Assembly: GCA_041659945.1 (NCBI GenBank)
Contig: JBAZXH010000001.1
Location: forward strand, 262,742 to 326,741
Direction: 5' to 3'
Source of the DNA: Candidatus Pacearchaeota archaeon
Lineage (GTDB): Archaea; Nanobdellota; Nanobdellia; Pacearchaeales; GW2011-AR1
Length of the DNA: 64,000 bases
Part shown: piece after piece, positions 12,488 through 54,685 of the stretch
Layout: every line of letters begins with the position of its first letter
How positions within the stretch are numbered: position 1 is the stretch's first letter
Program-made: the position numbers and the translations under genes
Notes under the pieces: model-generated
The model's input: only the letters and a program-made list of their open reading frames with translations
What the model was told of the DNA's origin: nothing
Database searches by the model: none

Positions 12488-12507
12488 ACATAAATATTTA
12501 AAATAAA

Positions 12508-16901: not shown

Positions 16902-19175
16902 ATGTTATTTGATAAGACAACAAAATTATATGCATATGAGATAAGAAATGAATCGGGCCAAAATGTGGCCTATGTAAACTACTTGGGAGCACCCTACATA
17001 CCCTCAATAGCGGCTATTCCTGAAGTTATGGTTCGTACGGTAGATTTACTTATTGAATCTCAGAATATAACTAGGATTGTTTTTGTACAACAAAGAAATT
17101 ATAATTATGATTCTGATAAAGTTAATTTGCTTGCTGAAATAGCTTATCTTTATAACTTTTTAGTTAAACAGGAAAGGGTTTTATCCCCTGAAAAATTAGG
17201 AATGGCAAGCCAGGTAGTTATTTCTCAAAGATATGAACTAATTAATTATTTTTTGCAGTTGATGAAGCAGGACCCGGTTGCAGCATATCAACTAATTAAA
17301 AATGCATTGATAGAAGAGAAAGCCGCAGCAAGTGTTCCGGGAGCAATTAAAGAACTAGCTTATCTTATGCTGTTGGAAAAAGTTGTTTCTTTATTTGAAG
17401 ATACTGCTTTGATAAAAAAAGTTCTTGGAGATTATCAAGCAGGCCTTCCAAAAGATCGTAGTGTTTATAATCAGATATTTTTGGCAGATATAATACCAAA
17501 TTTTGCATTTGCAAGACTTGTTTCTTCACTTCCAGAAGACTCTAAAATTATTTCACAATATGAGATTGGTAGTGGTTCTGATAAGAGTACTGTTACAATA
17601 TTGAAAAAACCAAATGAGCTAAAATACTTTTATCATTTGATGCCCCCAGAATATTCTCTTAATGAAGAATTTCAAATGCTTTTGAACTTAGCAAGAAACG
17701 TTTTAATTGAGCATCAACCAAAGGCTGAAGAATTTATTGATCCGGCTAGGACAAGGCAGGTCTTTTTTAATGTTGCAAGAGACTTATTAAGAGAGCTTTC
17801 AGAAAATAAAAAGATATTTGTTTCGTATTCGGATTTGAACAAATTAGCAATGATTTTGGTTAGACATACAATTGGGTTTGGTTTATTGGAGGTGTTGTTG
17901 CAGGATAGACAACTGCAGGATATTGTTTTAAATGCTCCAATTAGTTTAACTCCGATTTATTTGAGACATGAAAAATATGATGAGTGTGTTACAAATATTA
18001 TGCTTAGTCAGGATGATGCTGATTCTTGGGCAGCTAAATTTAGAATGAGTTCGGGTAGACCTTTGGATGAGGCTAATCCCATATTGGATACTGATTTAGC
18101 TTTGGAAAAGATTAGAGCAAGAATTGCCATTGTTCAAAGACCGTTATCTTCTCAGGGATTGTCCTATGCTGTTAGAAGACATAGAGACTATCCGTGGACT
18201 TTGCCTTTGTTTATTAAAAATAAAATGATTAATTCTTTTGGTGCAGGTTTAATGAGTTTTTTAATTGATGGTGCTAGAACTTTATTGATTGCAGGAACAA
18301 GAAGCTCAGGAAAAACATCTCTTTTGGGAAGTTTAATGTTGGAAATAAAACCAAAGTATAGAATGATACTTATTGAAGATACTCCAGAATTGCCTGCAGA
18401 TTATATGAGGGAATTGGGTTATGATTTATTGAGTATGAAAGTTAGATCTTCCATGACTGAGACTTCCAACGAACTTGCTGCTGAAGAAGGAATAAGAACT
18501 AGTCTGAGACTTGGAGATTCATCTTTAATTGTTGGTGAAATAAGAAGTAATGAAGCTAAAGCTCTTTATGAAGCAATGAGAATTGGAGCTTTAGCAAATG
18601 TTGTTGCAGGTACAATTCATGGTTCGTCTCCCTATTCGGTTTTTGATAGAGTTGTTAATGATTTGAATGTTCCGGTAACTAGCTTTAAAGCAACAGATTT
18701 AATTTTGGTTGCAAATCCGGTTAGAACTCCGGATGGATTGCACTCCATGAAAAGAGTTATACAACTGACAGAGGTTAGAAAGCATTGGACTAAAGATCCG
18801 CTGGAAGAGGGAGGTTTTATTGATTTACTTAATTATAATGTTGAAAAAGATGATCTGGAACCAAGCCAGGAATTGATGAATGGTGATTCTGAAATTATTA
18901 AAACAATTGCTGCATCGGTTAAGGGATGGGTTGGTGATTGGGATGCGGTTTATGATAATATTTTGCTGAGAGGAAAGATAAAACAAGAACTAGTTAATAT
19001 TTCTGATAAACTGAAAAAACCAGAATTACTGGAAGCTAAATTTTCTTTTATTGCAAATAATATTTTTCATGAAGTTTGTGATGAAGTAACAAAAGAAATA
19101 GGAATTCCTAAATCTGAAAGAGTTTTTCCTGTTTGGGTTAAGAGACTGGATGAAGAAATACGGAAGTTCAGTTAA
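16902..19175 (+). CDS. Type IV pilus/secretion ATPase of the GspE/VirB11/FlaI-PilB family
   Basis: Walker A GTRSSGKTSLLGS (nt ~18291-18332), Asp box MILIEDTPEL, Walker B LIVGEIRSNEA and His box AGTIHGSSP, in the canonical order. The N-terminal region is unusually long (~450 aa). Confidence 0.85.
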   Translation: MLFDKTTKLYAYEIRNESGQNVAYVNYLGAPYIPSIAAIPEVMVRTVDLLIESQNITRIVFVQQRNYNYDSDKVNLLAEIAYLYNFLVKQERVLSPEKLGMASQVVISQRYELINYFLQLMKQDPVAAYQLIKNALIEEKAAASVPGAIKELAYLMLLEKVVSLFEDTALIKKVLGDYQAGLPKDRSVYNQIFLADIIPNFAFARLVSSLPEDSKIISQYEIGSGSDKSTVTILKKPNELKYFYHLMPPEYSLNEEFQMLLNLARNVLIEHQPKAEEFIDPARTRQVFFNVARDLLRELSENKKIFVSYSDLNKLAMILVRHTIGFGLLEVLLQDRQLQDIVLNAPISLTPIYLRHEKYDECVTNIMLSQDDADSWAAKFRMSSGRPLDEANPILDTDLALEKIRARIAIVQRPLSSQGLSYAVRRHRDYPWTLPLFIKNKMINSFGAGLMSFLIDGARTLLIAGTRSSGKTSLLGSLMLEIKPKYRMILIEDTPELPADYMRELGYDLLSMKVRSSMTETSNELAAEEGIRTSLRLGDSSLIVGEIRSNEAKALYEAMRIGALANVVAGTIHGSSPYSVFDRVVNDLNVPVTSFKATDLILVANPVRTPDGLHSMKRVIQLTEVRKHWTKDPLEEGGFIDLLNYNVEKDDLEPSQELMNGDSEIIKTIAASVKGWVGDWDAVYDNILLRGKIKQELVNISDKLKKPELLEAKFSFIANNIFHEVCDEVTKEIGIPKSERVFPVWVKRLDEEIRKFS

Positions 19176-19813: not shown

Positions 19814-19854
19814 ATTTACTCAAAGTTTATTAATCACTATTTGTTTTATTTTTA

Positions 19855-20394
19855 ATGAAAATTGAGGCGAGGATAGTTCATTTTTTTAATAGAATTGGGA
19901 AAAATACTGTTTTGAACAAGATAACTTTGATTTTAAATTATATACCTTTCTTAGTAGCTCTTGTATTTATTATTATTATTTTTGTTTATTCTTATGACCC
20001 TGCAAATTTGAAAGTATTTTTAGCATCATTAATAATCGTGATTTGTTTTCACTTTTTAATAAGTGAACTTATTTTTAAGAAAGTAGTAGTTAGTTTTATT
20101 GGTATAAGAAAAAGACCCTATCTCTCTTATAGTTCTATTAAAGGAATTGGAAAGAAGTTTTCAGACAGTTCTTTTCCATCAAGTCATATGTCTGCAATTA
20201 CTGGTATCTTGTTTATTGTTAGTTACTTTTATCCATTAACAATTATCTTCTCAATTATCTTCCTTTTATTTATGGCTTTTTCAAGAATCCATAATGGAAT
20301 GCATTACCCTTCAGATGTTTTAGCAGGGTTTATTTTAGGATTATTTTATGGAGTTATGGGATTGAGTTTAGTTAATTTAATTTACGTTTTTTGA
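19855..20394 (+). CDS. PAP2-family phosphatase, copy 2 (tandem paralog)
   Basis: GIRKRPY, FPSSHMS and SRIHNGMHYPSDV, with the same architecture as copy 1. Confidence 0.85.
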   Translation: MKIEARIVHFFNRIGKNTVLNKITLILNYIPFLVALVFIIIIFVYSYDPANLKVFLASLIIVICFHFLISELIFKKVVVSFIGIRKRPYLSYSSIKGIGKKFSDSSFPSSHMSAITGILFIVSYFYPLTIIFSIIFLLFMAFSRIHNGMHYPSDVLAGFILGLFYGVMGLSLVNLIYVF

Positions 20395-20452: not shown

Positions 20453-22669
20453 ATGTCAGATGTAGATGAAATTATGAAGAAGTATGGGGCAAAGATTTCA
20501 AAACAAATAGACTTGAAAGATGAATACAAGGTCGGAGATTTGAGTAGAGAATATTTACAATTTAAAAAAGAATTAATGCCTGCTTTGTCAAGATATGAAT
20601 CTTGGGCAAAAACTTTTAATATAAAGGTAAAACCATCAACTAAAGATTTAGTAGGTATTCAAAGACAGTTGGATGTTGCTCATCTTGATCTATCTCCAGA
20701 AAATGTTTCGGGTTTTGCATTTTTTAGTGCTTTTTTGGTTTTTACTATTGGTTTGGTAATCTTTTCGGCATCATACTTTTCATTTGTTGGGTTGGAAGGA
20801 GATTTTCTTACCTATTTAATGGGACCTGCAGGTCTTTTTTTGGTTTTATCTTTGTTTGCTGCAATGTTTGTTTTTTATTATCTTTATTCTATGCCAAGTA
20901 GGCTTGCTAATTCCTGGAGATTAAAGGCAAGTGCACAAATGGTTCCGTGTATTTTGTATATTGTTGTTTACATGAAACATACTTCAAATCTTGAAAGAGC
21001 TGTTGCATTTGCATCTAAACACTTGAATTATCCTTTGGGGTTGGATCTAAAAAAAATATTTTGGGATGTTGAAACTGGGAAGTATAGTACTATTAAAGAA
21101 AGTTTAGATAAATATTTGGAAACCTGGGAAAAAGATAGTTTAGAATTTGTAGAAGCTTTTCATTTGATAGAATCTAGTCTTTATGAGCCATCTGATGGTA
21201 GAAGAATAATGATCCTTGAAAAGGGGCTGCAAACAATTTTGGATGGTGTTTACGAGAAGATGCTTGCATTCTCAAGAGAGGTTAGAAGTCCTTTAACTAA
21301 TTTGTATATGTTGGGAGTTGTTTTACCTACCTTGGGATTGGCACTTTTGCCTCTTGCCTCTGCTTTTTTGGGAGACATATTAAAAGTTTATCATGTCTTT
21401 ATATTTTTTAATTTAATTGTTCCATTTTTTGTTTTTTACTTAACCTCTCAAATAATGCTTAAACGACCGGGAGGTTATGGGGAAACTGATTTTCTTGAGT
21501 TGAATCCGGATTATGAGAAATACAAGAGTAAAAAGCATTATGTTACTGCTGCTTTGATTGCTATTCCTTTAATTTTAATTGCTCTTACTCCTTTTTTGTT
21601 ACAGTGGGACGAGTTAAGAAATACTATTGGATTGCAATGTCAGTATTATATAACTGGGACGAGTGGTTGTGATTTTGATTTTAATTATTTTGGTTTGAGC
21701 ATATTGGGAGAGACACGTGTTTTTGGTTTTAGATATGTGGAGGGAGCGGGAATTGTGGGGCCCTTTGGAATTTTGGCCATAGTTCTAAGTTTATTTATTC
21801 CCCTTGCTATTGGTTTGTTTTTTTACCTGTCCTATAATTCTAAAACAAAAGACTTAATTAAATCAAGAGATTTTTCTAAGCAACTTGAAAAAGAGTTTAC
21901 AAATTCACTTTTTCAATTGGGTAATAGAATCGGAGATGGGATGCCTGCAGAGGTGGCATTTGGTAGAGTTGCAGAATCAACTCGCGGACAGAAAACTGAA
22001 AATTTCTTTAGAAGAATTAATTTGAATTTGCAGCAGGGAGGAATGTCTTTGGAAAAAGCTATTTTTGATGAAAGAAGAGGAGCTATAATTTATTATCCTT
22101 CAGCTTTAATTGCAACAAGCATGAGAATCTTATTAGAGTCTGTTAAAAAAGGATTGAATATTGCAGCACAGAGTTTAATGAGTATTTCGGAGTATATTAA
22201 GAATATTCAGAAAGTAACCCAGAGACTTAATGATTTATTGGCAGAGGTTGTTTCTGATATGAAAAGTAATATGGTATTTTTAGCTCCGTTATTATCTGGA
22301 ATTGTTGTGGGATTATCTTCAATGATTGCTTTTCTTTTGGTAAGGCTAAGTGGAATATTTACTCAAATTGGAGGTAGTACTGAGCTGGGAGGTTTTAATA
22401 TTGGAGATTTTTTAAGAATTTTTGAAGTAGACAAAATGATTTCTCCTTACTTTTTACAAATTTCAGTTGGGCTTTATATTATAGAAATTATATTTATTTT
22501 AACAAATGTTCTTGTGGTGATTGATGCAGGAGAAGATAGGCTTAAGAGAACAAAAGAAACGGGAAATAATCTTGGTAGGGGAGTTGCAATTTATTTTGTT
22601 ATTACTTTGATTGCAATTGTTCTTCTTTCATCAATTGCAGCCATAGCTTTGGGAAGTTTGCAAACTTGA
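20453..22669 (+). CDS. Polytopic platform protein of a type IV pilus system (TadC/FlaJ/PilC-like, two T2SSF-like cytoplasmic repeats)
   Basis: 738 aa with alternating TM bundles and two helical cytoplasmic domains. It sits downstream of the secretion ATPase. A strong SD (gaggtgat) lies 5 nt before the ATG. Confidence 0.7.
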   Translation: MSDVDEIMKKYGAKISKQIDLKDEYKVGDLSREYLQFKKELMPALSRYESWAKTFNIKVKPSTKDLVGIQRQLDVAHLDLSPENVSGFAFFSAFLVFTIGLVIFSASYFSFVGLEGDFLTYLMGPAGLFLVLSLFAAMFVFYYLYSMPSRLANSWRLKASAQMVPCILYIVVYMKHTSNLERAVAFASKHLNYPLGLDLKKIFWDVETGKYSTIKESLDKYLETWEKDSLEFVEAFHLIESSLYEPSDGRRIMILEKGLQTILDGVYEKMLAFSREVRSPLTNLYMLGVVLPTLGLALLPLASAFLGDILKVYHVFIFFNLIVPFFVFYLTSQIMLKRPGGYGETDFLELNPDYEKYKSKKHYVTAALIAIPLILIALTPFLLQWDELRNTIGLQCQYYITGTSGCDFDFNYFGLSILGETRVFGFRYVEGAGIVGPFGILAIVLSLFIPLAIGLFFYLSYNSKTKDLIKSRDFSKQLEKEFTNSLFQLGNRIGDGMPAEVAFGRVAESTRGQKTENFFRRINLNLQQGGMSLEKAIFDERRGAIIYYPSALIATSMRILLESVKKGLNIAAQSLMSISEYIKNIQKVTQRLNDLLAEVVSDMKSNMVFLAPLLSGIVVGLSSMIAFLLVRLSGIFTQIGGSTELGGFNIGDFLRIFEVDKMISPYFLQISVGLYIIEIIFILTNVLVVIDAGEDRLKRTKETGNNLGRGVAIYFVITLIAIVLLSSIAAIALGSLQT

Positions 22670-22755: not shown

Positions 22756-23283
22756 ATGGCAAAAAGAGGTAAGGTGAAATTAAAGAGGAGAAAACCTGTT
22801 AGTAGAGTTGCTGTTAAAAATTATAGAAGTTCTAGAAAAACAAAACCCCCTATTAGTGTTAAGATAATATCTATTTTAACTTATGTTAGTGCTATCCTTA
22901 GTATTTTATTTGGTTTAGTTATGGTTGTTGGAAGTATTCTTGGAGCATCATTAATTAGTTATGTTGGTATGCAAAGATTAATTGATCTTGTTCCTGGATT
23001 AACTCTTGCTCAATCAATAATTGGGCCAGCTTTGCTTGTTTTAATGTTCCTTGGTTTTATTGCAATTGTTGTCGGAGTAATTGAGTTTTTAGTTGGAGCA
23101 GGGTTATGGAAAGGTAAAAAATGGGCATATGTGCTTGCTGTAGTTATTGTCCTGTTAGCTTTTATTAAGAATTTACTATTGCTCTTTGTTTCGCCAGCTG
23201 CCGGAATTGCAGGAGTGATTATATATGGAGTAATTGGTTACTTCTTATTGTTTGATAAAAGAACAAGAAATTATTTTTCTTAA
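22756..23283 (+). CDS. Membrane protein (175 aa, basic N-terminus, ~4 TM)
   Basis: MAKRGKVKLKRRK is followed by four hydrophobic segments. No diagnostic motif. Confidence 0.6.
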   Translation: MAKRGKVKLKRRKPVSRVAVKNYRSSRKTKPPISVKIISILTYVSAILSILFGLVMVVGSILGASLISYVGMQRLIDLVPGLTLAQSIIGPALLVLMFLGFIAIVVGVIEFLVGAGLWKGKKWAYVLAVVIVLLAFIKNLLLLFVSPAAGIAGVIIYGVIGYFLLFDKRTRNYFS

Positions 23284-23360: not shown

Positions 23361-23528
23361 ATGATTAAAAAGAGAGGTAAAAAAGGAGAGGTAAATCGTG
23401 ATCTTGTTGCTTGGTTAGTTATAGGTGCTGCAGTTGTGGTTTTAGTAGGAACAATTTATATTCTTCTTACAAAGAGAGGTTATAGCATTGGAGAAATGCT
23501 TAGTAATTTATTTAGACTGAGGAGGTAG
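23361..23528 (+). CDS. Mini pilin-like protein P0 (55 aa; not in the ORF track)
   Basis: MIKKRGKKGEVNRDLVAWLVIGAAVVVLVGTIYILL has a basic K-K-G motif followed by a ~20-residue hydrophobic helix. The promoter is at the leaderless distance. The stop lies 8 nt before the next start. Confidence 0.55.
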   Translation: MIKKRGKKGEVNRDLVAWLVIGAAVVVLVGTIYILLTKRGYSIGEMLSNLFRLRR

Positions 23529-23536
23529 TTTTTTTA

Positions 23537-25192
23537 ATGAGAAGGATAAAAAATAAAAAGGCGGAGGGAGATACTAATTGGAGCATGATTGCAGGTTTTA
23601 TTCTTTTAGTTTTGGCAATCTTTTTTGCTATTACTTTTATTTTTAAGATACCCTTGGTAAGCTGGTTTGAAAATTTAATTCCAGGTTTTGACTTACCTGG
23701 AGATAATGTTCTTAATCTTGGGGACCCAAGAAACCCAGATACCTTAGTTCCAGAAGGGTGTGATCGGATTGCAGTTTTAGTAAATGAGGGAAATGGAATT
23801 ATTAATACTATTAAACGTCAAACATCTGGAGAGTATGTTTATTTTATAAATTCTGGAACCCTTGAGAGTTCATATTTTTATTTTGATGGCAACTTAGAAT
23901 CTGGGAAAATAATTGTTAAGGACTTTTTTACTAGTGATGTTGAAGTTGGCACAGTTATTGCATCAAAAATATTTATAATTCCAGATTTTTTTGATGCTTC
24001 TTCAAAAGAATATCAGAACCTGAGGGTGAATTTGCTTCATGCAGGTTATGGAAAAGATGTTTTCATAGAAAAACTTAAAATTTTGAATAATGCTAAAATT
24101 TATTCTAAAATTCAAAAATCAGTTTGTCGTGGTGATGAGCAAACACAAATTGTTAATCAGTGGCCTGAAGATTTGGGAGTTTATAATGCAGACACAAGTA
24201 GCATATTAAAGAACACACAAAAGATCATTTTTGAATTTAGAGATGGAACCTATAAGAGTAATTTATTTTATAGGTATTTTATAAAAGATAATCTGGGTTA
24301 TTGGCAATGGTCTCTTGATATTAATGAATGGTTTTATTGCAAAGATAAAATTATTAAAAATGTAGGGGATAAAAATAAAGAGTTTATTATGAGTTTGGTA
24401 GGTAAAAATTATCAAGAGGGCATTGGTCTTTTAATTTCAAGAACATTCACTAATGATGAAGGGGCTTTATTTGGGAACTCTCAATTGTATATTTCTAAAG
24501 GAATTGTTATTTTAAATAATAAAGGCCTTTTTGAATTGGATAGAGCCTTTTTTGGAAAAGCAATTTATTTTTTCTTTGATGAGAACAACTATTGGAGATG
24601 GTCTTCTGATGGTAAAACTTGGGCATATACTTCAGTAGATGTTGACTTGAATAATTTTGCATTGTCTAAAGAAAATATTGCTATCATAGAAAATATTAAG
24701 AAAATAAACTCTCCGCCAAAATCAGAAGACTTCTTTGCTGGCGCTGAAGCAATTTTTGATAGCAGTATTGAAAAAGAAATAAGTTCTGTTGATTTAAAAT
24801 TAGTTGGAATTGATAATTCTAATGATTTTGGTAAGCTACAAATGTTTTCTTCAAATAACAAAAACTTTATTTTAATCGAATCTCAAGAAAATGGTAAGAC
24901 TATTGGGGTTATTTATGGTGATGGTTCTATTTGGTTTGATATGAGATTTTTGTTTCAAAATGATGGAAAATTGATTTTAGAAAGTGGCAAAATTAAACTT
25001 AGAGAAATTAATGGATATTCTTTGTTTTATCCTAATTCATTTAAGAATTCCCCCGAGTTAAAGTTTGATTTACCATGTAATGAAGAATCATTCAAAGTTA
25101 TCCCTAATTTTGGAAATTATTTTTGTGAAACTAATTTAAGGCTCGAGAAGGATAAGTTTGATTATATTAAACAGTTTATTAAAGAGGTTTAA
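23537..25192 (+). CDS. Large pilin-like protein P1 (551 aa) with class-III-like signal
   Basis: MRRIKNKKAEGDTNWSMIAGFILLVLAIFF. The N-terminal motif GDTNW(S/G)MIA is shared with P9. There is an internal duplicated YWxWSxD..W motif. Confidence 0.75.
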   Translation: MRRIKNKKAEGDTNWSMIAGFILLVLAIFFAITFIFKIPLVSWFENLIPGFDLPGDNVLNLGDPRNPDTLVPEGCDRIAVLVNEGNGIINTIKRQTSGEYVYFINSGTLESSYFYFDGNLESGKIIVKDFFTSDVEVGTVIASKIFIIPDFFDASSKEYQNLRVNLLHAGYGKDVFIEKLKILNNAKIYSKIQKSVCRGDEQTQIVNQWPEDLGVYNADTSSILKNTQKIIFEFRDGTYKSNLFYRYFIKDNLGYWQWSLDINEWFYCKDKIIKNVGDKNKEFIMSLVGKNYQEGIGLLISRTFTNDEGALFGNSQLYISKGIVILNNKGLFELDRAFFGKAIYFFFDENNYWRWSSDGKTWAYTSVDVDLNNFALSKENIAIIENIKKINSPPKSEDFFAGAEAIFDSSIEKEISSVDLKLVGIDNSNDFGKLQMFSSNNKNFILIESQENGKTIGVIYGDGSIWFDMRFLFQNDGKLILESGKIKLREINGYSLFYPNSFKNSPELKFDLPCNEESFKVIPNFGNYFCETNLRLEKDKFDYIKQFIKEV

Positions 25193-25762
25193 ATGAAAAA
25201 CAAAAAGGCAATTCTTATTCCTGAGATTTTGAAACTTGTAATTGGTGCATTAATTATTGTTTTTTTATTTGTGGCTGCAATAAAGATTTATGGAATTGTT
25301 CAGTCTAATTCTGATAGAACTCAAGCGGCTTCTGAAATAGAAGTGATTGCTAGAACTATAAATGGCCTCGGTGAGGGAGATGTGGGTAAGTACGATCTGC
25401 TTTCCCCAAGTGGTTGGGCTTTGTATGGTTTTCCCTATGGAAATGTTAAAACAATAAGGTGTGAAATCTCGGAGTTTTGTGTTTGTTTATGTCCAAAAGC
25501 AAGTGTCTCTATGGGATCAACAGTCAATCCTCGTTTAATTTCCGAGGAAGAGTATTTTAAAAGTTATCGTGATTCTTGTGATAGTCAAGGCGTTTGTTCC
25601 AAAGTTGAGAAAGAGGTTTTTGTGAATAATATTAATTTAGAATTTAAGGAGATTAAAACATTTATTTTAGTTGATGATTTAGTTGAAGCTAAAAAATCCA
25701 TCGCAATGACAATCAAAAATGACAAAGCATTTGTTAATTTCAATGATCAAAATGAAATCTAA
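25193..25762 (+). CDS. Pilin-like protein P2 (189 aa), Cys-rich ectodomain
   Basis: MKNKKAILIPEILKLVIGALIIVFLF has KKA followed by Glu at +5. Cys-rich stretch CEISEFCVCLCPK...CDSQGVC. The start abuts the P1 stop (taaatg). Confidence 0.75.
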   Translation: MKNKKAILIPEILKLVIGALIIVFLFVAAIKIYGIVQSNSDRTQAASEIEVIARTINGLGEGDVGKYDLLSPSGWALYGFPYGNVKTIRCEISEFCVCLCPKASVSMGSTVNPRLISEEEYFKSYRDSCDSQGVCSKVEKEVFVNNINLEFKEIKTFILVDDLVEAKKSIAMTIKNDKAFVNFNDQNEI

Positions 25763-25886
25763 TTCACTAAAAAAAGCGCAGTTATTACCAGAACAAGTAA
25801 TTCAAGCTCTCTTTTGGGTTGTTCTAGCTGTAGCTTTATTTACTGCGGCTTACTTTATTTTTAAATCAATTACCTCTATGGCTTAA
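25752..25886 (+). CDS. Mini pilin-like protein P3 (44 aa; not in the ORF track)
   Basis: MKSNSLKKAQLLPEQVIQALFWVVLAVALFTAAYFIF has KKA followed by Glu at +5. It overlaps the P2 3' end by 11 nt. Confidence 0.5.
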   Translation: MKSNSLKKAQLLPEQVIQALFWVVLAVALFTAAYFIFKSITSMA

Positions 25887-25926
25887 AAAGTATAAACTAT
25901 AAAAACCCTTGAGTTTTATTATTATT

Positions 25927-27048
25927 ATGATCTCTCATTTAAAAAAAGGTGAATTGCCAGTTAGCTGGACAGTTACAATAATTCTTTTGCTTATTGGTTT
26001 TGTTATTCTTTTGGTTATTTATTTTGAATTTTTTAATTTTGATATGATTGATAGGCAAGCCTGTCATAAATCTGTTCTTTTAAGAGGTTCTCTACCTTAT
26101 CAATCAGTTTCTCAAGGTTATGTTCCTTTACAATGTAAAACTCAAAAAATTTGTATAACTGGAGATTCTGGCGGAAAGTGTACTGAATTTAAAAATGAAG
26201 AAAAAGTTAGAAGAGTGAAAGTTCTTAATAATGAAAGAGGGTTGGATGAAATACAAAAGCTTTATGCTCAAGAAATCTTGGATTGTTGGTCTATGATGGG
26301 CGAGGGAAAATTAAGTATATTTTCCCCAAGTCTTTCACAAAGTTTTCAAATCGGTTCTCTTTATCCTAATTGTGTAATTTGTTCTAGAATTGCTATTGAC
26401 GAAAAAACCCTTGATAAAGTTGGGTTGAATAAGTTAAATATTTTTGAATACATGAATACTCATTTGGTCCCAAGTACTAATCAAACCTATTTGCAGTATA
26501 TTACTGGTGAAGATTTTGCAGGAATTGCTGTTGATGATCAAGCTTTTAATGAATTTGTAAAACAACAGGTTTCTAGTTCGGGAACTGGAGGAGTTGAAGG
26601 AGAATTAAATGGTGGAGGATTGGAAGGAGAGACAGACTATGTTGATGATGAAGTAGCTGTTTTGTTTATGCAAGTTAGTAGAGTTCCAAGTGCGTTAGAT
26701 GTTGCAAAAAAAGATATTTTGGTTGCATTGGGAATGGGTGCCGGCGCAACAGCTACTTATATTTCTGTTGGAGGTGCAACATTTGGTTGGTCTACTAAAT
26801 TGATTGGGTGGGTTAGTTCTGTTCCGGTTATTAGAGCAGGTGTAGCTGTCATTGCTCTAGTTGCAGGTACCACAACTCTTAGTACTCAAGCAATTAATCT
26901 GTACAAAAGCAAAAGTGTGGTTGCTGCTTCTTGTAGTGATGTTGAAGTAGGTAATGGGGTTTATAGTGGTTGTTCAGTAGTTAGAACAGTTAAATATGAT
27001 TCTCAAGAAATATTAAAAAATTGTAAAAAAATACAAAGTATCCCTTAG
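25927..27048 (+). CDS. Pilin-like protein P4 (373 aa from the ATG at 25927), Cys-rich with a hydrophobic G/A-rich C-terminal region
   Basis: MISHLKKGELPVSWTVTIILLLIGFVILL. The track start at 25909 is a TTG; the first ATG is at 25927. Many Cys residues are present. Confidence 0.7.
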   Translation: MISHLKKGELPVSWTVTIILLLIGFVILLVIYFEFFNFDMIDRQACHKSVLLRGSLPYQSVSQGYVPLQCKTQKICITGDSGGKCTEFKNEEKVRRVKVLNNERGLDEIQKLYAQEILDCWSMMGEGKLSIFSPSLSQSFQIGSLYPNCVICSRIAIDEKTLDKVGLNKLNIFEYMNTHLVPSTNQTYLQYITGEDFAGIAVDDQAFNEFVKQQVSSSGTGGVEGELNGGGLEGETDYVDDEVAVLFMQVSRVPSALDVAKKDILVALGMGAGATATYISVGGATFGWSTKLIGWVSSVPVIRAGVAVIALVAGTTTLSTQAINLYKSKSVVAASCSDVEVGNGVYSGCSVVRTVKYDSQEILKNCKKIQSIP

Positions 27049-27049
27049 A

Positions 27050-27466
27050 ATGAATAAACGTGGAGATGATTTATTAATTGAAAATTTAGTTGTTGTAGTT
27101 GTTGTTATTGTTTTTTTTGGTATGCTTTTGTTTTTTGTCGCTAGATCTAGTTCGGGTGGCGCTTTTTTGGGACAGTATTATTCTAAACAAGTAGGAGTTT
27201 TAATTGATGGTGGGAAACCAGGGACTCAGATAACTTTAGATGTAAGTGATGCTTATAAAGTTACAAGGAAAAATAATTTTGACTATCAAAAGATGGTTAA
27301 ATTTGAAGATAATAATGTTCTTTTTATGTTTGGTGATGGTAAGGAGTATAAGTTCCATTATTTTAGTGATGTTGAAGTTGAGGGACCAGTTTATTCTATT
27401 CTTGGAGAGACAAAAAACCCCCAAGTTCTTTTGAACTTTAAATTAAATTCTAAGAAAAATGTATAA
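27050..27466 (+). CDS. Pilin-like protein P5 (138 aa)
   Basis: MNKRGDDLLIENLVVVVVVIVFFGMLLFF. The start lies 1 nt after the P4 stop. Confidence 0.7.
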   Translation: MNKRGDDLLIENLVVVVVVIVFFGMLLFFVARSSSGGAFLGQYYSKQVGVLIDGGKPGTQITLDVSDAYKVTRKNNFDYQKMVKFEDNNVLFMFGDGKEYKFHYFSDVEVEGPVYSILGETKNPQVLLNFKLNSKKNV

Positions 27467-27965
27467 AATATCTAATAAAAGAGCTAATGTATTCTCTATT
27501 TGGTTACTTGTCATGTTTGTGTTAGTGGGAGGAGGTATAGCTATTAGTGTTATGTTCTTTTATTCTTATTCTTTAGATGTAAGAATTTACGAGGCAAAAG
27601 CCCTTTCGGAAAAAATAGTTGATTGTTTAGTTGTTAATGGATATATTAATGGAGAATTTGTTAAGAAAAATTCTATGGAATTTGATGTTTTAAGTTACTG
27701 TGGTTTGGACAAAAAATCTTTTAGTGAAGGATCTCCGTATTTTTTAAGATTAAAGTTAACTAGGGATTCGGAGGAGGTAAGGTACATTAAATTTGGTAAT
27801 TTTGCTATGGAAAAAGACTGTGAGATAAAACAAGGGCTTGTGGAATCAGATAAATTTCCAGATTGTATTAAAAAGTCTGTAATTGTTACGGACAGATCAA
27901 GAAATGAGTTTGTTTTAGAAGTTCTTTCAGGATCAAATAATCAGGGAGAGATAAGTCAAAAATGA
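27459..27965 (+). CDS. Pilin-like protein P6 (168 aa)
   Basis: MYKISNKRANVFSIWLLVMFVLVGGG. It overlaps P5 by 8 nt. Confidence 0.7.
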   Translation: MYKISNKRANVFSIWLLVMFVLVGGGIAISVMFFYSYSLDVRIYEAKALSEKIVDCLVVNGYINGEFVKKNSMEFDVLSYCGLDKKSFSEGSPYFLRLKLTRDSEEVRYIKFGNFAMEKDCEIKQGLVESDKFPDCIKKSVIVTDRSRNEFVLEVLSGSNNQGEISQK

Positions 27966-28516
27966 ATTTTAGACTAATGTTATCTAAAGGTAAGAAAGCA
28001 CAAATTTCAGAGGGCATGACCTGGCTAGCTGCGACATTTTTTGTTCTCTTAGCAATGGTTTTTTTTACGCTTTTAGTTGTTATGATTTTTTCACAAACCG
28101 ACAAAAAAATAGTTGATACAAGTCTTAAACCCTCTATTTCTAGTTTTTTTGTTCAAAATAGAGCAGTTATTTCTTTATGGTCTGATGATGAGTGTATCTG
28201 GACTGGAACTTATTTTGAGGAAACTGAGAAATGTAAACAGATAGATGTTCAAAAGAAATATGAAGATCTCTGTAATGTTCTTATGAATTATTTTAACAAC
28301 CCAGAGGTTTATTATAAGCATTTTTGTATTGAAACAAGAACTGACGATAAAAATGAAGTTATATCTATTATGATTGGTGACAAAACATGTGGGCTCAAGC
28401 CAAATGGTGAAACATGTATCTCTTCTGATATGCTTAATGTTTATGACTCAAATTATTTTATTTCAAAAGGAGGAAAACCAATAATAACTTTTTTTTATGA
28501 TGGAAAAACTAAATAA
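27962..28516 (+). CDS. Pilin-like protein P7 (184 aa)
   Basis: LSKGKKAQISEGMTWLAATFFVLLAMVFF. ATGA start/stop overlap with P6. Confidence 0.7.
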   Translation: MNFRLMLSKGKKAQISEGMTWLAATFFVLLAMVFFTLLVVMIFSQTDKKIVDTSLKPSISSFFVQNRAVISLWSDDECIWTGTYFEETEKCKQIDVQKKYEDLCNVLMNYFNNPEVYYKHFCIETRTDDKNEVISIMIGDKTCGLKPNGETCISSDMLNVYDSNYFISKGGKPIITFFYDGKTK

Positions 28517-29015
28517 GCGAGGTATGGTTTTAGCAATCGGTGTTTTTGTCCTAATGACCATGATTTTAATTGGAGCTGCACTTTTTTATTTTATTACTGA
28601 AAAGAGTAAAATTGACAAGCGGTTTGAGGGTTCTAGTGTTTTGGAGGAGGTTTACGCTAAGGAGAATCTGATTAATTTTTATGTTCAAGACATATTGGAT
28701 AAGGCTGTTCAGTCTAAGCCGAAAACTAGTCAAGAGTTGATTATTGCGTTAAAAAGTTCGATTGGTAGTTATAATATAAATAATCCTAATCCTCTAACTA
28801 TTGAAGAATCGCAGAATCCGTCAAAATACTTTTTTATGCCAGAACTTTTGCAGGTTGAGAATCAAATTGATTTTCCTGATAGGGTTAAAATTCAAAATAA
28901 CAAAGCTTTTTTTACAGTTGATATTTCACTGAAAAAGGAGATTTTTTATAAGGGTAAGAAAAATTTTGATGTTACCTATGTTTACACCAAAACTTTTGAA
29001 TCAGAGATTTCTTAA
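28497..29015 (+). CDS. Pilin-like protein P8 (172 aa)
   Basis: MMEKLNKRGMVLAIGVFVLMTMILIGAALF. It overlaps the P7 3' end. Confidence 0.7.
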   Translation: MMEKLNKRGMVLAIGVFVLMTMILIGAALFYFITEKSKIDKRFEGSSVLEEVYAKENLINFYVQDILDKAVQSKPKTSQELIIALKSSIGSYNINNPNPLTIEESQNPSKYFFMPELLQVENQIDFPDRVKIQNNKAFFTVDISLKKEIFYKGKKNFDVTYVYTKTFESEIS

Positions 29016-29028
29016 TAAAAGAATAATT

Positions 29029-29045
29029 TACGAAATATTTATAAA
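29029..29045 (+). promoter_or_regulatory. BRE/TATA promoter upstream of P9; 17-mer identical to the promoter at 34602
   Basis: tacgaaatatttataaa occurs identically at 29029-29045 and 34602-34618. Confidence 0.45.
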
Positions 29046-29082
29046 GGAGCTTTAGTTTGTTTTGTTATAAAAAGAGTTTAAG

Positions 29083-29781
29083 ATGAGATCAATAGTTAAT
29101 AAAAGGGGAGATACAAATTGGGGTATGATTGCTAGCGGATTGCTAGTTGCTCTTGCAGTAATTTTCGCATTCTTATTTTTTAGTGGCGCCTGGGGTAAAA
29201 TTTTGAATTGGTTAGGTGCTGTTCCAGGAGATACTTTACAAACAACTTTAGAAGGATGTAAAATTCGTTCAATGCCTTCATATACTTTACCAATTGAGTT
29301 TTGTAAGTTCAGATTAGTTAAGTTAGATGATCCTATTAGTAAGTCTGTTTATTTGACGTGCGAATATCCTCCGATTTATAGCCAACTTCCTGTTGAAAAC
29401 AGAGAGGCTGTTAATTGTAATAATCCAAAAGATCTTAATGAAAGAGTAAAAGATCTTTGCGATAGTCAAAAGACCAAGTTTACAGATGCAGCAGGCAAGA
29501 TAGAGGTAGCAAAATTACAAAAGGTTTTTGTTGCTAAGGCTGATGGAACTGTAGTTAATTGTGATGCCTTTTTAGCAGGAGTTGGTGGAACTCCTGATGC
29601 AACTACTAACAAAAAGAATTGTGTTGGTGCTGATGGTTGGAATGGAAACTGGTACGCTCTTAGTTGTCCTAGTCCTGCAACTGCTGGAAGTTCGGGTACT
29701 TGGGTTCAAATTGAACCTTCTAAAATAACTGATGCAGATCTTAATGCTAATGCAGGAAAGGTTTGTTGTAAAGCTGCTTAA
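29083..29781 (+). CDS. Pilin-like protein P9 (232 aa), Cys-rich ectodomain ending in CCKAA
   Basis: MRSIVNKRGDTNWGMIASGLLVALAVIFAF has an N-terminus paralogous to P1. There are at least 12 Cys residues in the ectodomain. Confidence 0.75.
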   Translation: MRSIVNKRGDTNWGMIASGLLVALAVIFAFLFFSGAWGKILNWLGAVPGDTLQTTLEGCKIRSMPSYTLPIEFCKFRLVKLDDPISKSVYLTCEYPPIYSQLPVENREAVNCNNPKDLNERVKDLCDSQKTKFTDAAGKIEVAKLQKVFVAKADGTVVNCDAFLAGVGGTPDATTNKKNCVGADGWNGNWYALSCPSPATAGSSGTWVQIEPSKITDADLNANAGKVCCKAA

Positions 29782-29923: not shown

Positions 29924-30049
29924 ATGACAAGTGATTATGGTTTTGCTGGCAAGAGAACAACAAAGAAAGATCTAAGAACTAAAAGCAAGAATAGAGTTTA
30001 TAAGCGTGGTGGAAAGAATAGAACTAAGTGCTTAGACGGCTGTTGTTAA
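29924..30049 (+). CDS. Possible very basic mini-protein (41 aa) ending in CLDGCC (not in the ORF track)
   Basis: MTSDYGFAGKRTTKKDLRTKSKNRVYKRGGKNRTKCLDGCC. gtttttaaaagg lies ~27 nt upstream of the ATG and a T-tract follows the stop. No homology recognised. Confidence 0.3.
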   Translation: MTSDYGFAGKRTTKKDLRTKSKNRVYKRGGKNRTKCLDGCC

Positions 30050-30271: not shown

Positions 30272-31129
30272 TCAATACATTAATCCTAAGATTTTGTAAA
30301 TACCTACATAGTTAACAATTATAAGTACAATAAATGCAAATAGGAACGAAGGGCTAAAGGGTATACCATATTTTACTAGAACTTTATTTTTGTAGTTTTT
30401 TTGTAGAAACTCTAGGTCACTTTCACTAATTCCTTCCCAATTTGAGGCGATTTTTCTATCTTTGACTTCTAAATCTTTAACTAACCAATCACCTATTGTA
30501 ATTTTATCAACTGATACCCATTTTACCATGCAGCACTGTTCAATGGCTTTTGTGTAGATGTAAAGCAGGGGCATTAGTAGGATCAGAAAGGAAAATACTA
30601 AGAATAATAACGAATTTCCTCTTGCAAGTAAAATAATAAAAAAAGCAAGGATAAAAGCAATGCCTAGACCAATGAATAATAGGCCTTTATTTTTATTAAA
30701 TTGTTTTTCTAGTTCAATCTTAAAACTCTTTTTATTTTTCAATGCTAGAACACCACTGTAAACTAAACTGTAAATTCCTCCTAAAAAGAGTAGAGCCATG
30801 ATAAAGATCATTGCATAGACTATATTTTCTAGCCAGCTAAGAGAGAGTGGAACTATAACTCCAAATGCTATAAATAACTTAGCATCTCCTCCTGCAAATA
30901 ACCTAGCATGGTAAAATAAATGTCCTAGTAGGAAGAATATTCCTAGGCCAATAAGTCCAAAAAGAAACCACCAGTAGTTATTTGAAAATAAACTGTAGAA
31001 TAATCTGATTACTAAAACAAAAATTATTAAACTAAAACTTATCCAATTTGCAATTTCTCTTGATTTTAAATCTTGGATATTTGCAAAAATAACCCAGATC
31101 AATACTAGTGCAATTAATAGTTCTATCAT
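30272..31129 (-). CDS. A24-family prepilin/preflagellin peptidase (PibD/FlaK/EppA-like) with an extra C-terminal soluble domain and terminal TM
   Basis: The first catalytic-Asp context is NIQDLKSREIAN and the second is FAGGDAKLFIAFG (GxGD-type). The core is polytopic. About 80 aa of extra sequence (ITIGDWLVKDLEVKD...) precede the last TM. Confidence 0.8.
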   Translation of the reverse strand: MIELLIALVLIWVIFANIQDLKSREIANWISFSLIIFVLVIRLFYSLFSNNYWWFLFGLIGLGIFFLLGHLFYHARLFAGGDAKLFIAFGVIVPLSLSWLENIVYAMIFIMALLFLGGIYSLVYSGVLALKNKKSFKIELEKQFNKNKGLLFIGLGIAFILAFFIILLARGNSLLFLVFSFLILLMPLLYIYTKAIEQCCMVKWVSVDKITIGDWLVKDLEVKDRKIASNWEGISESDLEFLQKNYKNKVLVKYGIPFSPSFLFAFIVLIIVNYVGIYKILGLMY

Positions 31130-54599: not shown

Positions 54600-54685
54600 C
54601 TTTTCTTAATTTTATAAACGCCCTGTTTTACCTTTTAGTAAACGTTCTGAGGATATAAAAGCATAATAGTAATAATAAACTCAGA

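What the first reader, a model, noticed from the sequence alone, without database searches (positions are those of the whole stretch)
23361..29781. Ten-gene pilin-like operon with a shared K-[KR]-[GA] signal, two unannotated mini-pilins and disulfide-rich ectodomains
Seen:
- The N-termini are KKG|EVNRDLVAWLVIG (P0), KKA|EGDTNWSMIAGF (P1), KKA|ILIPEILKLVIG (P2), KKA|QLLPEQVIQALF (P3), KKG|ELPVSWTVTII (P4), KRG|DDLLIENLVVV (P5), KRA|NVFSIWLLVM (P6), KKA|QISEGMTWLAA (P7), KRG|MVLAIGVFVL (P8) and KRG|DTNWGMIASG (P9).
- P2 and P3 carry Glu at +5, as bacterial type IV pilins do.
- P1 and P9 share GDTNW(S/G)MIA.
- P0 (55 aa) and P3 (44 aa) are below the ORF-track cutoff and consist of little more than the signal plus helix.
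- The genes abut or overlap (taaatg, ATGA, 8-, 11- and 20-nt overlaps).
- P2, P4 and P9 are Cys-rich, and P9 ends in CCKAA.

Inference: P0 and P3 could be the actual filament core subunits (helix-only pilins). The large Cys-rich members could be tip or minor pilins, or adhesins. The polar, often acidic 3-8 residues between the G/A and the hydrophobic helix differ from the canonical archaeal motif, in which the helix starts right after the cleavage site.
Basis: partly seen in the sequence, partly recalled or inferred. Interest (0 to 1): 0.65.

Follow-up and report, generated by a model that had tools for sequence, protein, structure and literature searches.

The report
Conserved ten-pilin operon in DPANN archaea
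This is the subunit-gene block of a very divergent type IV pilus-like machine that is conserved across tiny groundwater archaea (Pacearchaeota/Woesearchaeota). Standard annotation does not recognise these genes, so the locus gives a concrete candidate for how these uncultured symbionts build surface filaments.

Summary
Ten co-directional, abutting genes (23361-29781) all start with a short basic leader ending K-[KR]-[G/A], followed by a hydrophobic helix.

The block lies between a FlaI/TadA-type ATPase plus a large polytopic membrane protein upstream and an A24 prepilin peptidase with both catalytic Asp downstream. The same operon, in nearly the same gene order, occurs in most of 80 related Pacearchaeota/Woesearchaeota loci.

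- **Leader motif:** across 336 proteins the consensus is N-K-[KR]-[GA], with K at -3 in 87% (not imposed by my filter).
- **Mini-ORFs:** both are real conserved genes. P0 is found in 40 loci and P3 in 45 of 53.
- **P0:** it resembles Flp/EpdE helix-only pilins (mature ~45 aa, acidic residue at +4/+5 in 29/32, conserved C-terminal NLFRFGR).
- **P3:** its mature form is ~32 aa and it always sits next to P4, so it is more likely a membrane partner of P4.
- **P4:** this is the most conserved member, with 10 conserved Cys, about 3,100 clusters in public data, no Pfam family and no known fold.
- **P1 and P9:** their ectodomains are hypervariable.
- **Family matches:** none of the ten proteins matches a known pilin family. 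Two AlphaFold models show a long N-terminal helix plus a globular domain but match no solved pilin.

Verdict: a new, lineage-specific variant of the type IV filament kind. Processing and filament formation are inferred, not shown.

The parts
16902..19175 (+). Secretion/assembly ATPase (757 aa) of the FlaI/TadA/GspE family, with a ~300-aa N-terminal extension
   Evidence: Pfam T2SSE 1.5e-10. NCBIfam FlaI 2e-38 and TadA 5.6e-34, both below the curated cut-offs. Nearest solved structures are afGspE 2OAP 4.6e-27, CpaF 1e-19 and FlaI 2.6e-16. A homologue is present in 54 of 80 related loci.
20453..22669 (+). Polytopic membrane protein (738 aa), the probable very divergent platform protein (TadC/FlaJ/PilC-like)
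   Evidence: Weak T2SSF hit, E 0.028. Only 3 of 25 orthologues hit T2SSF (best 4e-5), and there is no PDB sequence match. It is 47-67% identical in 80 Pacearchaeota/Woesearchaeota loci and is flanked there by the ATPase and the pilin operon.
23361..23528 (+). P0, mini-pilin candidate (55 aa; predicted mature form 46 aa): a helix, a KGKG-type turn, then a short basic amphipathic tail
   Evidence: N-terminus KKG|EVNRDLVAWLVIG. The family has 48 small members in 40 loci and a conserved C-terminal IKNLFRFGR. An acidic residue sits at +4/+5 in 29/32 and the median mature length is 45 aa. It is the first gene of the operon in both gene arrangements. No Pfam pilin or Flp hit.
23537..25192 (+). P1, large pilin-like protein (551 aa) with a hypervariable ectodomain; candidate modular pilin or adhesin
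   Evidence: Leader KKA|EGDTNW. The database search returned only itself. At this position the length varies from 137 to 551 aa among relatives and the ectodomain is not conserved. Its N-terminal 34 aa are 56% identical to P9.
25193..25762 (+). P2, pilin-like protein (189 aa) with a bacterial-style [IF]L[LI][PG]E N-terminus and a six-Cys ectodomain
   Evidence: KKA|ILIPE. The ILxPE/FLLGE motif recurs in orthologues. Six Cys are conserved in 22-24 of 24 orthologues.
25752..25886 (+). P3, micro-protein (44 aa; predicted mature form ~35 aa), a single membrane helix, always directly upstream of P4
   Evidence: KKA|QLLPE. An equivalent 33-49-aa ORF lies directly upstream of the P4 gene in 45 of 53 loci, with consensus KKA|E..LIKIILWIVF...YFLLK. 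Some copies lack a leader. Median mature length is 32 aa.
25927..27048 (+). P4, the most conserved member (373 aa): class III-like leader, long N-terminal helix, Cys-rich alpha/beta domain, and a G/A/S/T-rich hydrophobic hairpin
   Evidence: 88 homologues, all annotated hypothetical, with no Pfam family apart from one PF13488 hit. Eight Cys are invariant and two more are nearly invariant (at least 90% of sequences), including a CxxC. There are 3,092 clusters at E<=1e-3 in 1.84 billion representatives. The AF2 model has pLDDT 74.7, helix 12-55 and a low-confidence hairpin 256-336. No Foldseek PDB hit is better than E=2. A second hydrophobic segment occurs in 34 of 55 members.
27050..27466 (+). 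P5, small pilin-like protein (138 aa); candidate minor pilin
   Evidence: KRG|DDLLIEN. Conserved in 34 loci, with the motif EQxYAKQIALxID.AKPGT. The AF2 model has pLDDT 78.8, helix 4-54 and six beta strands. Foldseek found no significant PDB match. There is a non-significant N-terminal alignment to the archaeal filament subunit 8fk7.
27459..27965 (+). P6, pilin-like protein (168 aa) with four conserved Cys; candidate minor pilin
   Evidence: KRA|NVFSIW. Conserved in 38 loci. C56 is invariant and C81, C121 and C136 are conserved in at least 90%.
27962..28516 (+). P7, pilin-like protein (184 aa) with an EppA-type +1 Gln
   Evidence: KKA|QISEGMTW. Gln at +1 in 18 of 29 positional orthologues, with consensus KKA|QIG.TLTWF. 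The ectodomain and its Cys are not conserved.
28497..29015 (+). P8, pilin-like protein (172 aa) whose hydrophobic helix starts right after the predicted site
   Evidence: KRG|MVLAIGVFVL. The site is present in 31 of 31 positional orthologues. Conserved in 19 loci.
29083..29781 (+). P9, Cys-rich pilin-like protein (232 aa) with a variable ectodomain; alternative major-pilin candidate
   Evidence: KRG|DTNWGMIA, ending in CCKAA. It is separated from P8 by 67 nt that contain a TATA-like TTTATAAA. Relatives carry NKKG|AEMTIGTIVVIVLALVVLV..GF.GGWGNLW at this position. Orthologues have 6-14 Cys.
29924..30049 (+). Tiny basic ORF (41 aa, no membrane helix) conserved between P9 and the peptidase gene; role unknown and membership uncertain
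   Evidence: phmmer hits in 19 loci, down to 4.7e-14. It occupies the same position in L003, L077, L012 and L024. No Pfam hit.
30272..31129 (-). A24 prepilin/preflagellin peptidase (285 aa)
   Evidence: Pfam Peptidase_A24 3.3e-11 and NCBIfam FlaK 1.2e-09. It aligns to FlaK 3S0X, with both catalytic Asp motifs conserved (IQDLKSREI and AGGDAKL). A homologue is present in 40 of 80 loci, next to the operon.

Best explanation
The region is the subunit-gene block of a lineage-specific type IV filament (TFF) system of Pacearchaeota/Woesearchaeota (DPANN archaea).

**Proposed mechanism (inferred from how such systems work)**
1. The ten proteins insert into the membrane with their short basic leader (consensus N-K-[KR]-[GA]) in the cytoplasm.
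2. The adjacent A24 aspartic peptidase removes the leader.
3. The FlaI/TadA-type ATPase, working through the 738-aa platform-like membrane protein, extracts the processed subunits and stacks their N-terminal helices into a filament or short pseudopilus.

**Proposed division of labour (inferred)**
- P0, a Flp/EpdE-like helix-only protein, is a polymerising subunit and the leading candidate for the bulk of the fibre.
- P9 is a second, surface-variable pilin.
- P1 is a modular pilin that carries a large variable adhesin domain.
- P2 and P5-P8 are low-abundance minor pilins that prime or cap the fibre.
- P4, with its micro-protein partner P3, is a conserved Cys-rich core component at the base or tip.
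- The ectodomains are stabilised by disulfides rather than N-glycans.
- The likely role is attachment to host cells or surfaces.

**Shown here:** the gene content, the motif, the synteny, the conservation and the catalytic residues. **Not shown:** cleavage, polymerisation and the individual roles.
For: **Machinery around the block**
- The ten consecutive genes with leader plus helix lie between a T2SSE/FlaI/TadA-type ATPase, a weakly T2SSF-like membrane protein and an A24 peptidase with both catalytic Asp.

**Conservation of the operon**
- The same operon is found next to the platform gene in most of 80 loci (47-67% platform identity), in two arrangements that keep the gene order P0...P9-peptidase.

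**Cleavage-site motif**
- K/R at -2 and G/A (rarely S) at -1 are kept in every family in about 30 genomes.
- Over 336 operon proteins, K at -3 is 87% and N at -4 is 55%, and the median leader is 7 aa.
- The background rate of such a site is 30%.
- A profile-profile comparison of P5 and P6 finds only the leader MNK[KR][GA] in common.

**Structure models**
- The AF2 models of P4 and P5 have N-terminal helices of about 45-50 residues followed by a globular domain.

**P0**
- It occurs in 40 loci, has a mature length of ~45 aa, carries an acidic residue at +4/+5 in 29/32, and is the first gene of the operon.
- Precedent: the Epd major pilin lacks a globular domain, like Tad/Flp pilins.

**Ectodomains**
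- P1 and P9 ectodomains are hypervariable, while P4, P5, P6, P2 and P8 are conserved.
- Cys is enriched and conserved, and there are 0-1 N-glycosylation sequons per protein.
Against: - None of the ten proteins hits any Pfam or NCBIfam pilin, Flp or class III signal model.
- Foldseek found no solved pilin similar to the P4 or P5 models.
- The platform assignment rests on weak T2SSF hits in 3 of 25 orthologues.
- P4 carries a second hydrophobic hairpin, which would hinder its extraction from the membrane.
- Some P3 and P1 orthologues lack a [KR][GA] site.
- There are no expression, proteomic or imaging data for this lineage. One groundwater study states that type IV pilus components are missing in DPANN genomes.
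Confidence: 0.78

Rival explanations
1. P9 (or the P9/P1 type) is the true major pilin. The two mini-proteins P0 and P3 are not fibre subunits but small membrane-embedded assembly or anchoring factors: P3 bound to P4, and P0 bound to the platform.
For: - In relatives the P9 position carries a canonical-looking and highly conserved N-terminus (NKKG|AEMTIGTIVVIVLALVVLV) with a variable, Cys-rich C-terminus. That combination is typical of major pilins.
- P9 has its own 67-nt upstream region with a TATA-like element.
- Mature P3 is only ~32 aa, is always adjacent to P4, and sometimes has no leader.
- The P0 profile resembles only generic single-span membrane proteins such as SecE.
- The conserved basic C-terminal tail of P0 is unusual for an exposed fibre surface.
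Against: - P0 has the leader motif in 32 of 32 members and a hydrophobic +1.
- It carries an acidic residue at +4/+5, the position used for subunit-subunit contact in bacterial pilins.
- Its mature size is Flp-like.
- Helix-only major pilins are established for Epd and Tad pili.
- P0 is the first gene of the operon in both arrangements.
Confidence: 0.35
2. The machine does not make a long adhesive pilus. It makes a short pseudopilus, as in type II secretion, the Com system or the bindosome. That pseudopilus would display or secrete the Cys-rich domains, or take up DNA or other host material.
For: - Eight of the ten proteins look like minor subunits, and five conserved ones sit in a row, as in GspH-K or ComGD-G (established knowledge of those systems).
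- The most conserved member, P4, has an extra hydrophobic hairpin that suggests it stays in the membrane.
- DPANN archaea depend on external nucleotides and lipids (general knowledge; for context).
Against: - No ComEC-like channel, secretin or substrate-binding protein is encoded in the locus.
- A Flp-like P0 and hypervariable P1/P9 ectodomains fit an exposed fibre better.
Confidence: 0.2
3. The ten proteins are ordinary N-terminally anchored (signal-anchor) envelope proteins. They are neither cleaved nor polymerised, and the K-K-G/A motif is just the positive-inside flank of the anchor.
For: - A [KR][GA] dipeptide just before an N-terminal membrane helix is common: 30% of unrelated proteins in these loci have one.
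- The ten proteins have no sequence or fold match to pilins.
Against: - The site is invariant across ten unrelated ectodomain families in about 30-50 genomes, with extra conservation at -3 and -4.
- The block is strictly linked to an ATPase and an A24 peptidase with intact catalytic residues.
- The only similarity shared between families is the leader itself.
Confidence: 0.07

Closest known systems
Epd pili of Methanococcus maripaludis (archaeal TFF 'system 1')
   Same: - Both are archaeal type IV filaments encoded by a cluster of about 11 genes with several minor pilins and hypothetical proteins.
- Both have a major pilin without a globular domain and a cluster-linked peptidase.
- Both use processing sites of the form [KR][GA]|Q, with an acidic residue near +5.
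- The P7 family has +1 Gln in 18 of 29 members.
   Different: - System 1 has two platform genes. Here there is one 738-aa gene with barely detectable T2SSF similarity.
- +1 Gln is not general: +1 is E, D, I, Q and others.
- No Pfam class III or pilin model is matched.
- The mini-pilin is encoded inside the operon.
- The ectodomains are Cys-rich and almost free of N-glycosylation sequons.
Bacterial Tad/Flp pili
   Same: - The ATPase is close to CpaF/TadA.
- P0 matches Flp in layout: mature ~45 aa, a hydrophobic helix, a turn, a short second helix and an acidic residue at +4/+5.
- Larger pilin-like proteins follow, comparable to TadE/TadF, plus one big variable protein comparable to TadG (comparison from established knowledge).
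   Different: - There is no Flp_Fap Pfam match.
- The motif is N-K-[KR]-[GA]| rather than G|xxxxEY, and there is no conserved Tyr.
- No secretin, TadZ or RcpC is present.
- The setting is an archaeal cell envelope.
Minor-pilin priming/tip complexes of bacterial T2SS and T4aP (GspH-K, FimU-PilVWX) and modular pilins such as Streptococcus sanguinis PilB
   Same: - Several conserved, small pilin-like proteins are encoded in a row (P5-P8).
- One pilin module is fused to a large variable domain (P1), which is the concept of a modular pilin with a direct role in adhesion (PMC8179133 abstract).
   Different: - No sequence or structural similarity was detected.
- Here there are ten members, including two micro-proteins and the P4 family, which has no counterpart.
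Archaeal filament subunit PDB 8fk7 (deposited as 'Flagellin', 144 aa, 20 chains)
   Same: It has the same N-terminal layout as P5: MPMKTKG|LEPIVAAVLLIVV..., a helix continuing to about residue 50, then beta strands. The alignment runs from residue 1.
   Different: The match is not significant (E 0.62) and is limited to the leader, the helix and the first strand.

Membership tests
Archaeal type IV pilin-like protein (class III signal peptide substrate) | Short, positively charged leader ending in K/R at -2 and G/A at -1 | tested here: met
   All ten window proteins have it. Every family keeps it in about 30 genomes. Over 336 proteins the consensus is N-K-[KR]-[GA] with a median leader of 7 aa.
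Archaeal type IV pilin-like protein (class III signal peptide substrate) | A hydrophobic stretch of about 20 residues at the mature N-terminus that forms a long alpha-helix | tested here: met
   A hydrophobic 16-mer starts 0-10 residues after the site in all ten proteins. AF2 predicts helices 12-55 in P4 and 4-54 in P5.
Archaeal type IV pilin-like protein (class III signal peptide substrate) | Sequence match to a curated pilin or class III signal model (Pfam, NCBIfam) | tested here: not met
   No such hit at E<=1 for P0-P9 in Pfam. NCBIfam gave no hit for the six proteins scanned: P0, P2, P5, P6, P7 and P8. None of the 32 P0 members gave a pilin hit.
Archaeal type IV pilin-like protein (class III signal peptide substrate) | Globular domain with a fold like that of solved pilins | tested here: inconclusive
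   The models have a helix-plus-beta-domain 'lollipop' layout. Foldseek against the PDB gave nothing better than E 0.096 for P5 and E 2 for P4.
Archaeal type IV pilin-like protein (class III signal peptide substrate) | Leader removed by the prepilin peptidase and subunit incorporated into a filament | not testable with these tools
   This needs N-terminal proteomics, an in vitro cleavage assay or filament purification.
Type IV filament (TFF) system | PilB/FlaI/TadA-family hexameric ATPase encoded with the pilins | tested here: met
   T2SSE 1.5e-10; FlaI 2e-38 and TadA 5.6e-34; afGspE, CpaF and FlaI are the nearest solved structures. Present in 54 of 80 loci.
Type IV filament (TFF) system | PilC/TadC/FlaJ-family polytopic platform protein | tested here: inconclusive
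   T2SSF E 0.028 in the window protein. Only 3 of 25 orthologues hit it (best 4e-5), and there is no PDB sequence hit. Position and conservation fit the role.
Type IV filament (TFF) system | A24 aspartic prepilin peptidase with two catalytic Asp | tested here: met
   Peptidase_A24 3.3e-11. Alignment to FlaK 3S0X shows QD(L/F)(K/R)SREI and GGD(A/G)K conserved.
Flp (Tad) pilin / Epd helix-only major pilin, tested for P0 | Mature protein of about 45-60 aa without a globular domain | tested here: met
   Median mature length is 45 aa in 32 members, with a helix-turn-short-helix layout.
Flp (Tad) pilin / Epd helix-only major pilin, tested for P0 | G|xxxxEY motif (Flp) or +1 Gln with +5 Glu (Epd) | tested here: inconclusive
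   An acidic residue sits at +4 (16/32) or +5 (13/32), but there is no conserved Tyr and +1 is I/F/V/L/M rather than Gln.
Flp (Tad) pilin / Epd helix-only major pilin, tested for P0 | Match to the Pfam Flp_Fap model or to arCOG06620 | tested here: not met
   Flp_Fap is not among the families hit by P0 members. arCOG profiles are not available here.
Archaeal TFF system 1 (Epd) | Two separate genes encoding the platform protein | tested here: not met
   There is a single 738-aa gene in the window and in all 80 loci. The definition comes from the 2026 preprint.

The most novel reading that the evidence does not exclude
Pacearchaeota/Woesearchaeota build a previously unrecognised kind of type IV filament.
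- Its shaft would be made of helix-only micro-subunits: P0 at about 45 aa, perhaps with the 32-aa P3, which would be the smallest pilin known.
- P4, a DPANN-only family of about 3,100 clusters with 10 conserved Cys and a glycine-zipper-like hydrophobic hairpin, would be a tip or base protein that inserts into the host membrane.
- The system would then be a host-contact or host-penetration device of these episymbionts.
Probability: 0.12. Interest if true: 0.85.

Novelty: new variant of a known kind. Interest (0 to 1): 0.55.

Why it matters
Pacearchaeota and Woesearchaeota are abundant, uncultured, ultra-small archaea thought to live attached to hosts. How they attach is unknown. One groundwater study even used 'pili present' to label cells as CPR bacteria, because type IV pilus components were said to be missing from DPANN genomes.

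This locus changes that picture in three ways:
- A complete set of type IV filament genes is conserved across the lineage. That set is a clear ATPase and a clear A24 peptidase, a probable but weakly supported platform protein, and ten candidate substrates.
- The platform and all ten subunit families are invisible to Pfam and NCBIfam.
- It defines ten new protein families. One of them (P4) has thousands of members, and two are micro-proteins that size cut-offs tend to drop.

It also gives concrete targets: a cleavage motif to search for in metaproteomes, and subunits to look for in cryo-EM of filaments. A further testable idea is that these archaea stabilise surface proteins with disulfides instead of N-glycans.

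Tried and rejected
- **P1 database search.** It returned only P1 itself, because the ectodomain is too variable. Local phmmer later found only two weak relatives.
- **Iterated profile searches per family.** These merged all ten families through the shared leader and membrane helix. I discarded them and used single-pass searches, tail-only queries and gene position instead.
- **Pfam and NCBIfam scans.** Pfam was run on P0-P9 and NCBIfam on six of them (P0, P2, P5-P8). Neither found a pilin model. A Pfam scan of 32 P0 members gave only generic single-span hits.
- **Profiles against PDB sequences.** The P5, P6 and P0 profiles gave nothing significant.
- **Foldseek on the P4 and P5 models.** No significant match, so the fold test is inconclusive rather than supportive.
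- **Platform profile.** No PDB hit and a Pfam T2SSF hit in only 3 of 25 members.
- **Paralogy between P5 and P6.** hhalign found only the leader in common.
- **Lipoprotein or Sec-signal reading.** Rejected, because there is no Cys after the G/A and no AxA-type site after the helix. The two Sec-like proteins elsewhere in the window (35616, 37846) look different.
- **PAP2 genes, the 616-aa protein and the DUF7144 protein as system components.** Rejected as conserved parts, because each occurs in only 1 of 80 loci.
- **A disulfide-forming enzyme in the window.** None was found.
- **Not attempted.** Multimer modelling and arCOG classification, because the tools do not offer them.

Full report
**1. 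What is in the sequence**

The window is AT-rich (about 31% G+C) and archaeal. It holds an intron-containing tRNA and archaeal housekeeping genes. It comes from an 832,568-bp metagenomic contig.

They are packed as one unit: an 8-nt gap, TAA followed directly by ATG, overlaps of 11, 8, 4 (ATGA) and 20 nt, and a 1-nt gap. Only P9 is set apart, by 67 nt.

The other details also hold. P2 and P3 have Glu at +5. P1 and P9 share 56% identity over their first 34 residues and nothing else. P9 ends in CCKAA.

Cys makes up 2.4-4.3% of P2, P4, P6, P7 and P9, against 0.64% in 35 other proteins of the window. The counts are always even, and there are 0-1 N-glycosylation sequons per protein.

**2. Genomic setting**

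Upstream lie two machinery genes:
- A 757-aa ATPase of the FlaI/TadA/GspE family. Its nearest solved relatives are afGspE, CpaF and FlaI.
- A 738-aa polytopic membrane protein with a weak T2SSF hit.

Downstream, on the other strand, is an A24 peptidase. It aligns to FlaK with both catalytic Asp motifs conserved.

Three elements inside the locus are peculiar to this genome, each occurring in 1 of 80 related loci: two PAP2 genes, a 616-aa protein and a DUF7144 protein.

**3. Related loci**

A search with the 738-aa protein found 80 loci at 47-67% identity. Nearly all are labelled Pacearchaeota, Woesearchaeota, Nanoarchaeota or another DPANN archaeon; two records carry bacterial labels.

In most loci with enough flanking DNA the same operon follows the platform gene. 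Its order is:
- mini-ORF of about 50 aa
- variable protein (137-551 aa)
- protein of about 160-280 aa
- mini-ORF of about 40 aa
- protein of about 300-400 aa
- proteins of about 110-150, about 150-175, about 150-230 and about 140-270 aa
- a last pilin-like protein
- a tiny basic ORF
- the A24 peptidase
- a HIT-family protein

 In a second arrangement the whole operon lies upstream of the platform gene and is read divergently, again starting with the P0-like mini-ORF and ending with the peptidase.

**4. The leader motif is real**

For positional orthologues of P1, P2 and P4-P9 in 29-31 genomes, wherever a site was called, -2 is K/R and -1 is G/A (rarely S). These two positions are fixed by my search rule. 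The informative result is that a site is present in nearly every orthologue: 31 of 31 for P6 and P8, 29 of 31 for P4, P5 and P7, and 28 of 31 for P2. P1 and P9 are the exceptions (20 of 31 and 18 of 29), largely because positional assignment at those two slots often picked up neighbouring genes.

Over 336 proteins in 56 runs of such genes, positions I did not select on are also conserved: K at -3 in 87% and N at -4 in 55%. The median leader is 7 aa.

In the same loci only 30% of other proteins with an N-terminal membrane helix have a [KR][GA] nearby. A profile-profile comparison of the P5 and P6 families finds only the leader in common.

This is the signature expected for substrates of one dedicated peptidase.

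**5. The mini-ORFs**

*P0.* The family has 48 small members in 40 loci. The alignment shows a leader, a hydrophobic +1, an acidic residue at +4 or +5 in 29 of 32, a helix of about 22 residues, a KGKG-like turn and a conserved IKNLFRFGR tail. The median mature length is 45 aa.

*P3.* A P3-like ORF (33-49 aa, consensus KKA|E..LIKIILWIVF...YFLLK) lies directly upstream of the P4 gene in 45 of 53 loci. A few copies lack a leader and start about where the mature protein would begin. The median mature length is 32 aa.

Both are therefore genuine, conserved genes. P0 was called in both public records of the contig and P3 in one.

**6. The larger members**

Using residues 46 onward as query, the ectodomains are conserved to very different degrees:

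| Protein | Loci with a detectable ectodomain match |
|---|---|
| P4 | 37 |
| P5 | 22 |
| P6 | 22 |
| P8 | 14 |
| P2 | 13 |
| P9 | 2 |
| P1 | 1 |
| P7 | 1 |

*P4.*
- It has 88 close homologues, all annotated hypothetical.
- Eight Cys are invariant and two are nearly invariant, including a CxxC.
- It matches 3,092 clusters (1,888 at E<=1e-10) among 1.84 billion representatives.
- Its AlphaFold model (pLDDT 74.7) has a helix at 12-55, an alpha/beta domain and a low-confidence hydrophobic hairpin at 256-336 rich in G/A/S/T.
- Foldseek found no similar solved structure.

*P5.* Its model (pLDDT 78.8) is a helix at 4-54 plus six strands, again without a significant structural match.

*Conserved Cys.* P2 keeps six Cys in 22-24 of 24 orthologues and P6 keeps four.

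*Family matches.* None of the ten proteins hits a Pfam pilin model, and NCBIfam found nothing for the six scanned.

**7. Interpretation**

The evidence fits the pilin block of a type IV filament system, served by the neighbouring ATPase, platform-like protein and peptidase.

The closest described systems are the archaeal Epd system and the bacterial Tad/Flp system. The Epd system has a cluster of about 11 genes, a helix-only major pilin, and +1 Gln with +5 Glu. The Tad/Flp system has an ATPase related to CpaF and a mature pilin of about 45 aa.

This locus is not a member of either as defined:
- It has one platform gene, not two.
- It gives no Flp or class III model hits.
- +1 Gln occurs only in the P7 family.

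P9 is a serious alternative. In relatives its N-terminus is canonical and conserved while its C-terminus is variable, and it has its own upstream region. P3 is more likely a membrane partner of P4.

The 'polar spacer' is not a real anomaly, for three reasons:
- Acidic or polar residues in the first five positions occur in EppA substrates and in bacterial pilins.
- They also occur in a solved archaeal subunit, 8fk7, which reads KTKG|LEPIV.
- The predicted helices begin within 0-3 residues of the site.

**8. Novelty and limits**

The kind of system is known. The variant is new in three respects:
- Ten families have no annotation.
- The platform protein is barely recognisable.
- The ectodomains are disulfide-rich and glycan-poor.

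It is conserved across a DPANN lineage for which one study stated that type IV pilus components are missing. A 2026 census mentions only a few DPANN systems.

Everything about cleavage, polymerisation and function is inference from gene content and motif conservation.

Noticed in passing
window 29924-30049 (+): A 41-aa, very basic ORF without a membrane helix (MTSDYGFAGKRTTKKDLRTKSKNRVYKRGGKNR...). It is conserved at the same spot, between the last pilin gene and the peptidase gene, in about 19 related loci. It has no Pfam hit and its role is unknown.
   Followed up: partly
window 13229-14269 (-) and 14269-14712 (-): Two coiled-coil proteins are read divergently from the ATPase side. The 346-aa one has a small N-terminal domain, a long Q/G/Y-rich low-complexity region and a C-terminal coiled coil. 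The 147-aa one is a coiled coil with a weak winged-helix hit. Homologues occur in 36 and 40 of the 80 loci, so they may be cytoplasmic accessories or regulators of the system, or simply conserved neighbours.
   Followed up: partly
window 11536-11784 (+), inside ORF 11248-11784: This is another possible class III-type N-terminus outside the operon: MGAGLKKG|LGVLAALAVIVAVIVATGQ (82 aa from this Met). Two small membrane-protein ORFs follow at 11924-13017.
   Followed up: no
window 62-6031 (+) and 52820-53758 (-): There is a 1,989-aa S8 subtilase with an I9 propeptide, DUF4214 and several CARDB repeats, and a 312-aa M10/astacin-like metalloprotease with a CARDB domain. Both are probable surface proteases, notable in such a small genome.
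   Followed up: no
window 54527-60000: tRNA-Asp (54527-54600) is followed directly by a phage-integrase-family gene (54686-55972). G+C then drops to 25% at 56-58 kb. This may be an integrated element.
   Followed up: no
window 52361-52483 (-): A 123-nt tRNA match in Rfam (57.7 bits) was not reported by ARAGORN. Its length implies an intron, which fits an archaeal origin.
   Followed up: no
window 19223-20394 (+), 14893-16743 (+), 22756-23283 (+): Two tandem PAP2 phosphatase genes, a 616-aa protein without domains and a DUF7144 membrane protein sit inside the ATPase-platform-pilin locus. Each is found in only 1 of 80 related loci, so they are insertions specific to this genome.
   Followed up: partly
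L019 12335-12499, L020 12512-12676, L062 13565-13750, L065 12690-12875, L067 14692-14892: Several relatives carry extra mini pilin-like genes of 54-66 aa, for example KKG|VELSINTVIIVIIAVIALVLILF.... Some start without a leader (MELTIEQLIKI...). Short helix-only proteins are therefore a recurrent feature of these operons.
   Followed up: no
window 23361-29781 (all ten proteins): N-glycosylation sequons are almost absent (0-1 per protein), whereas archaeal pilins studied so far carry several. Together with the conserved even-numbered Cys, this suggests disulfide-based rather than glycan-based stabilisation. No disulfide-forming enzyme is encoded in the window.
   Followed up: partly
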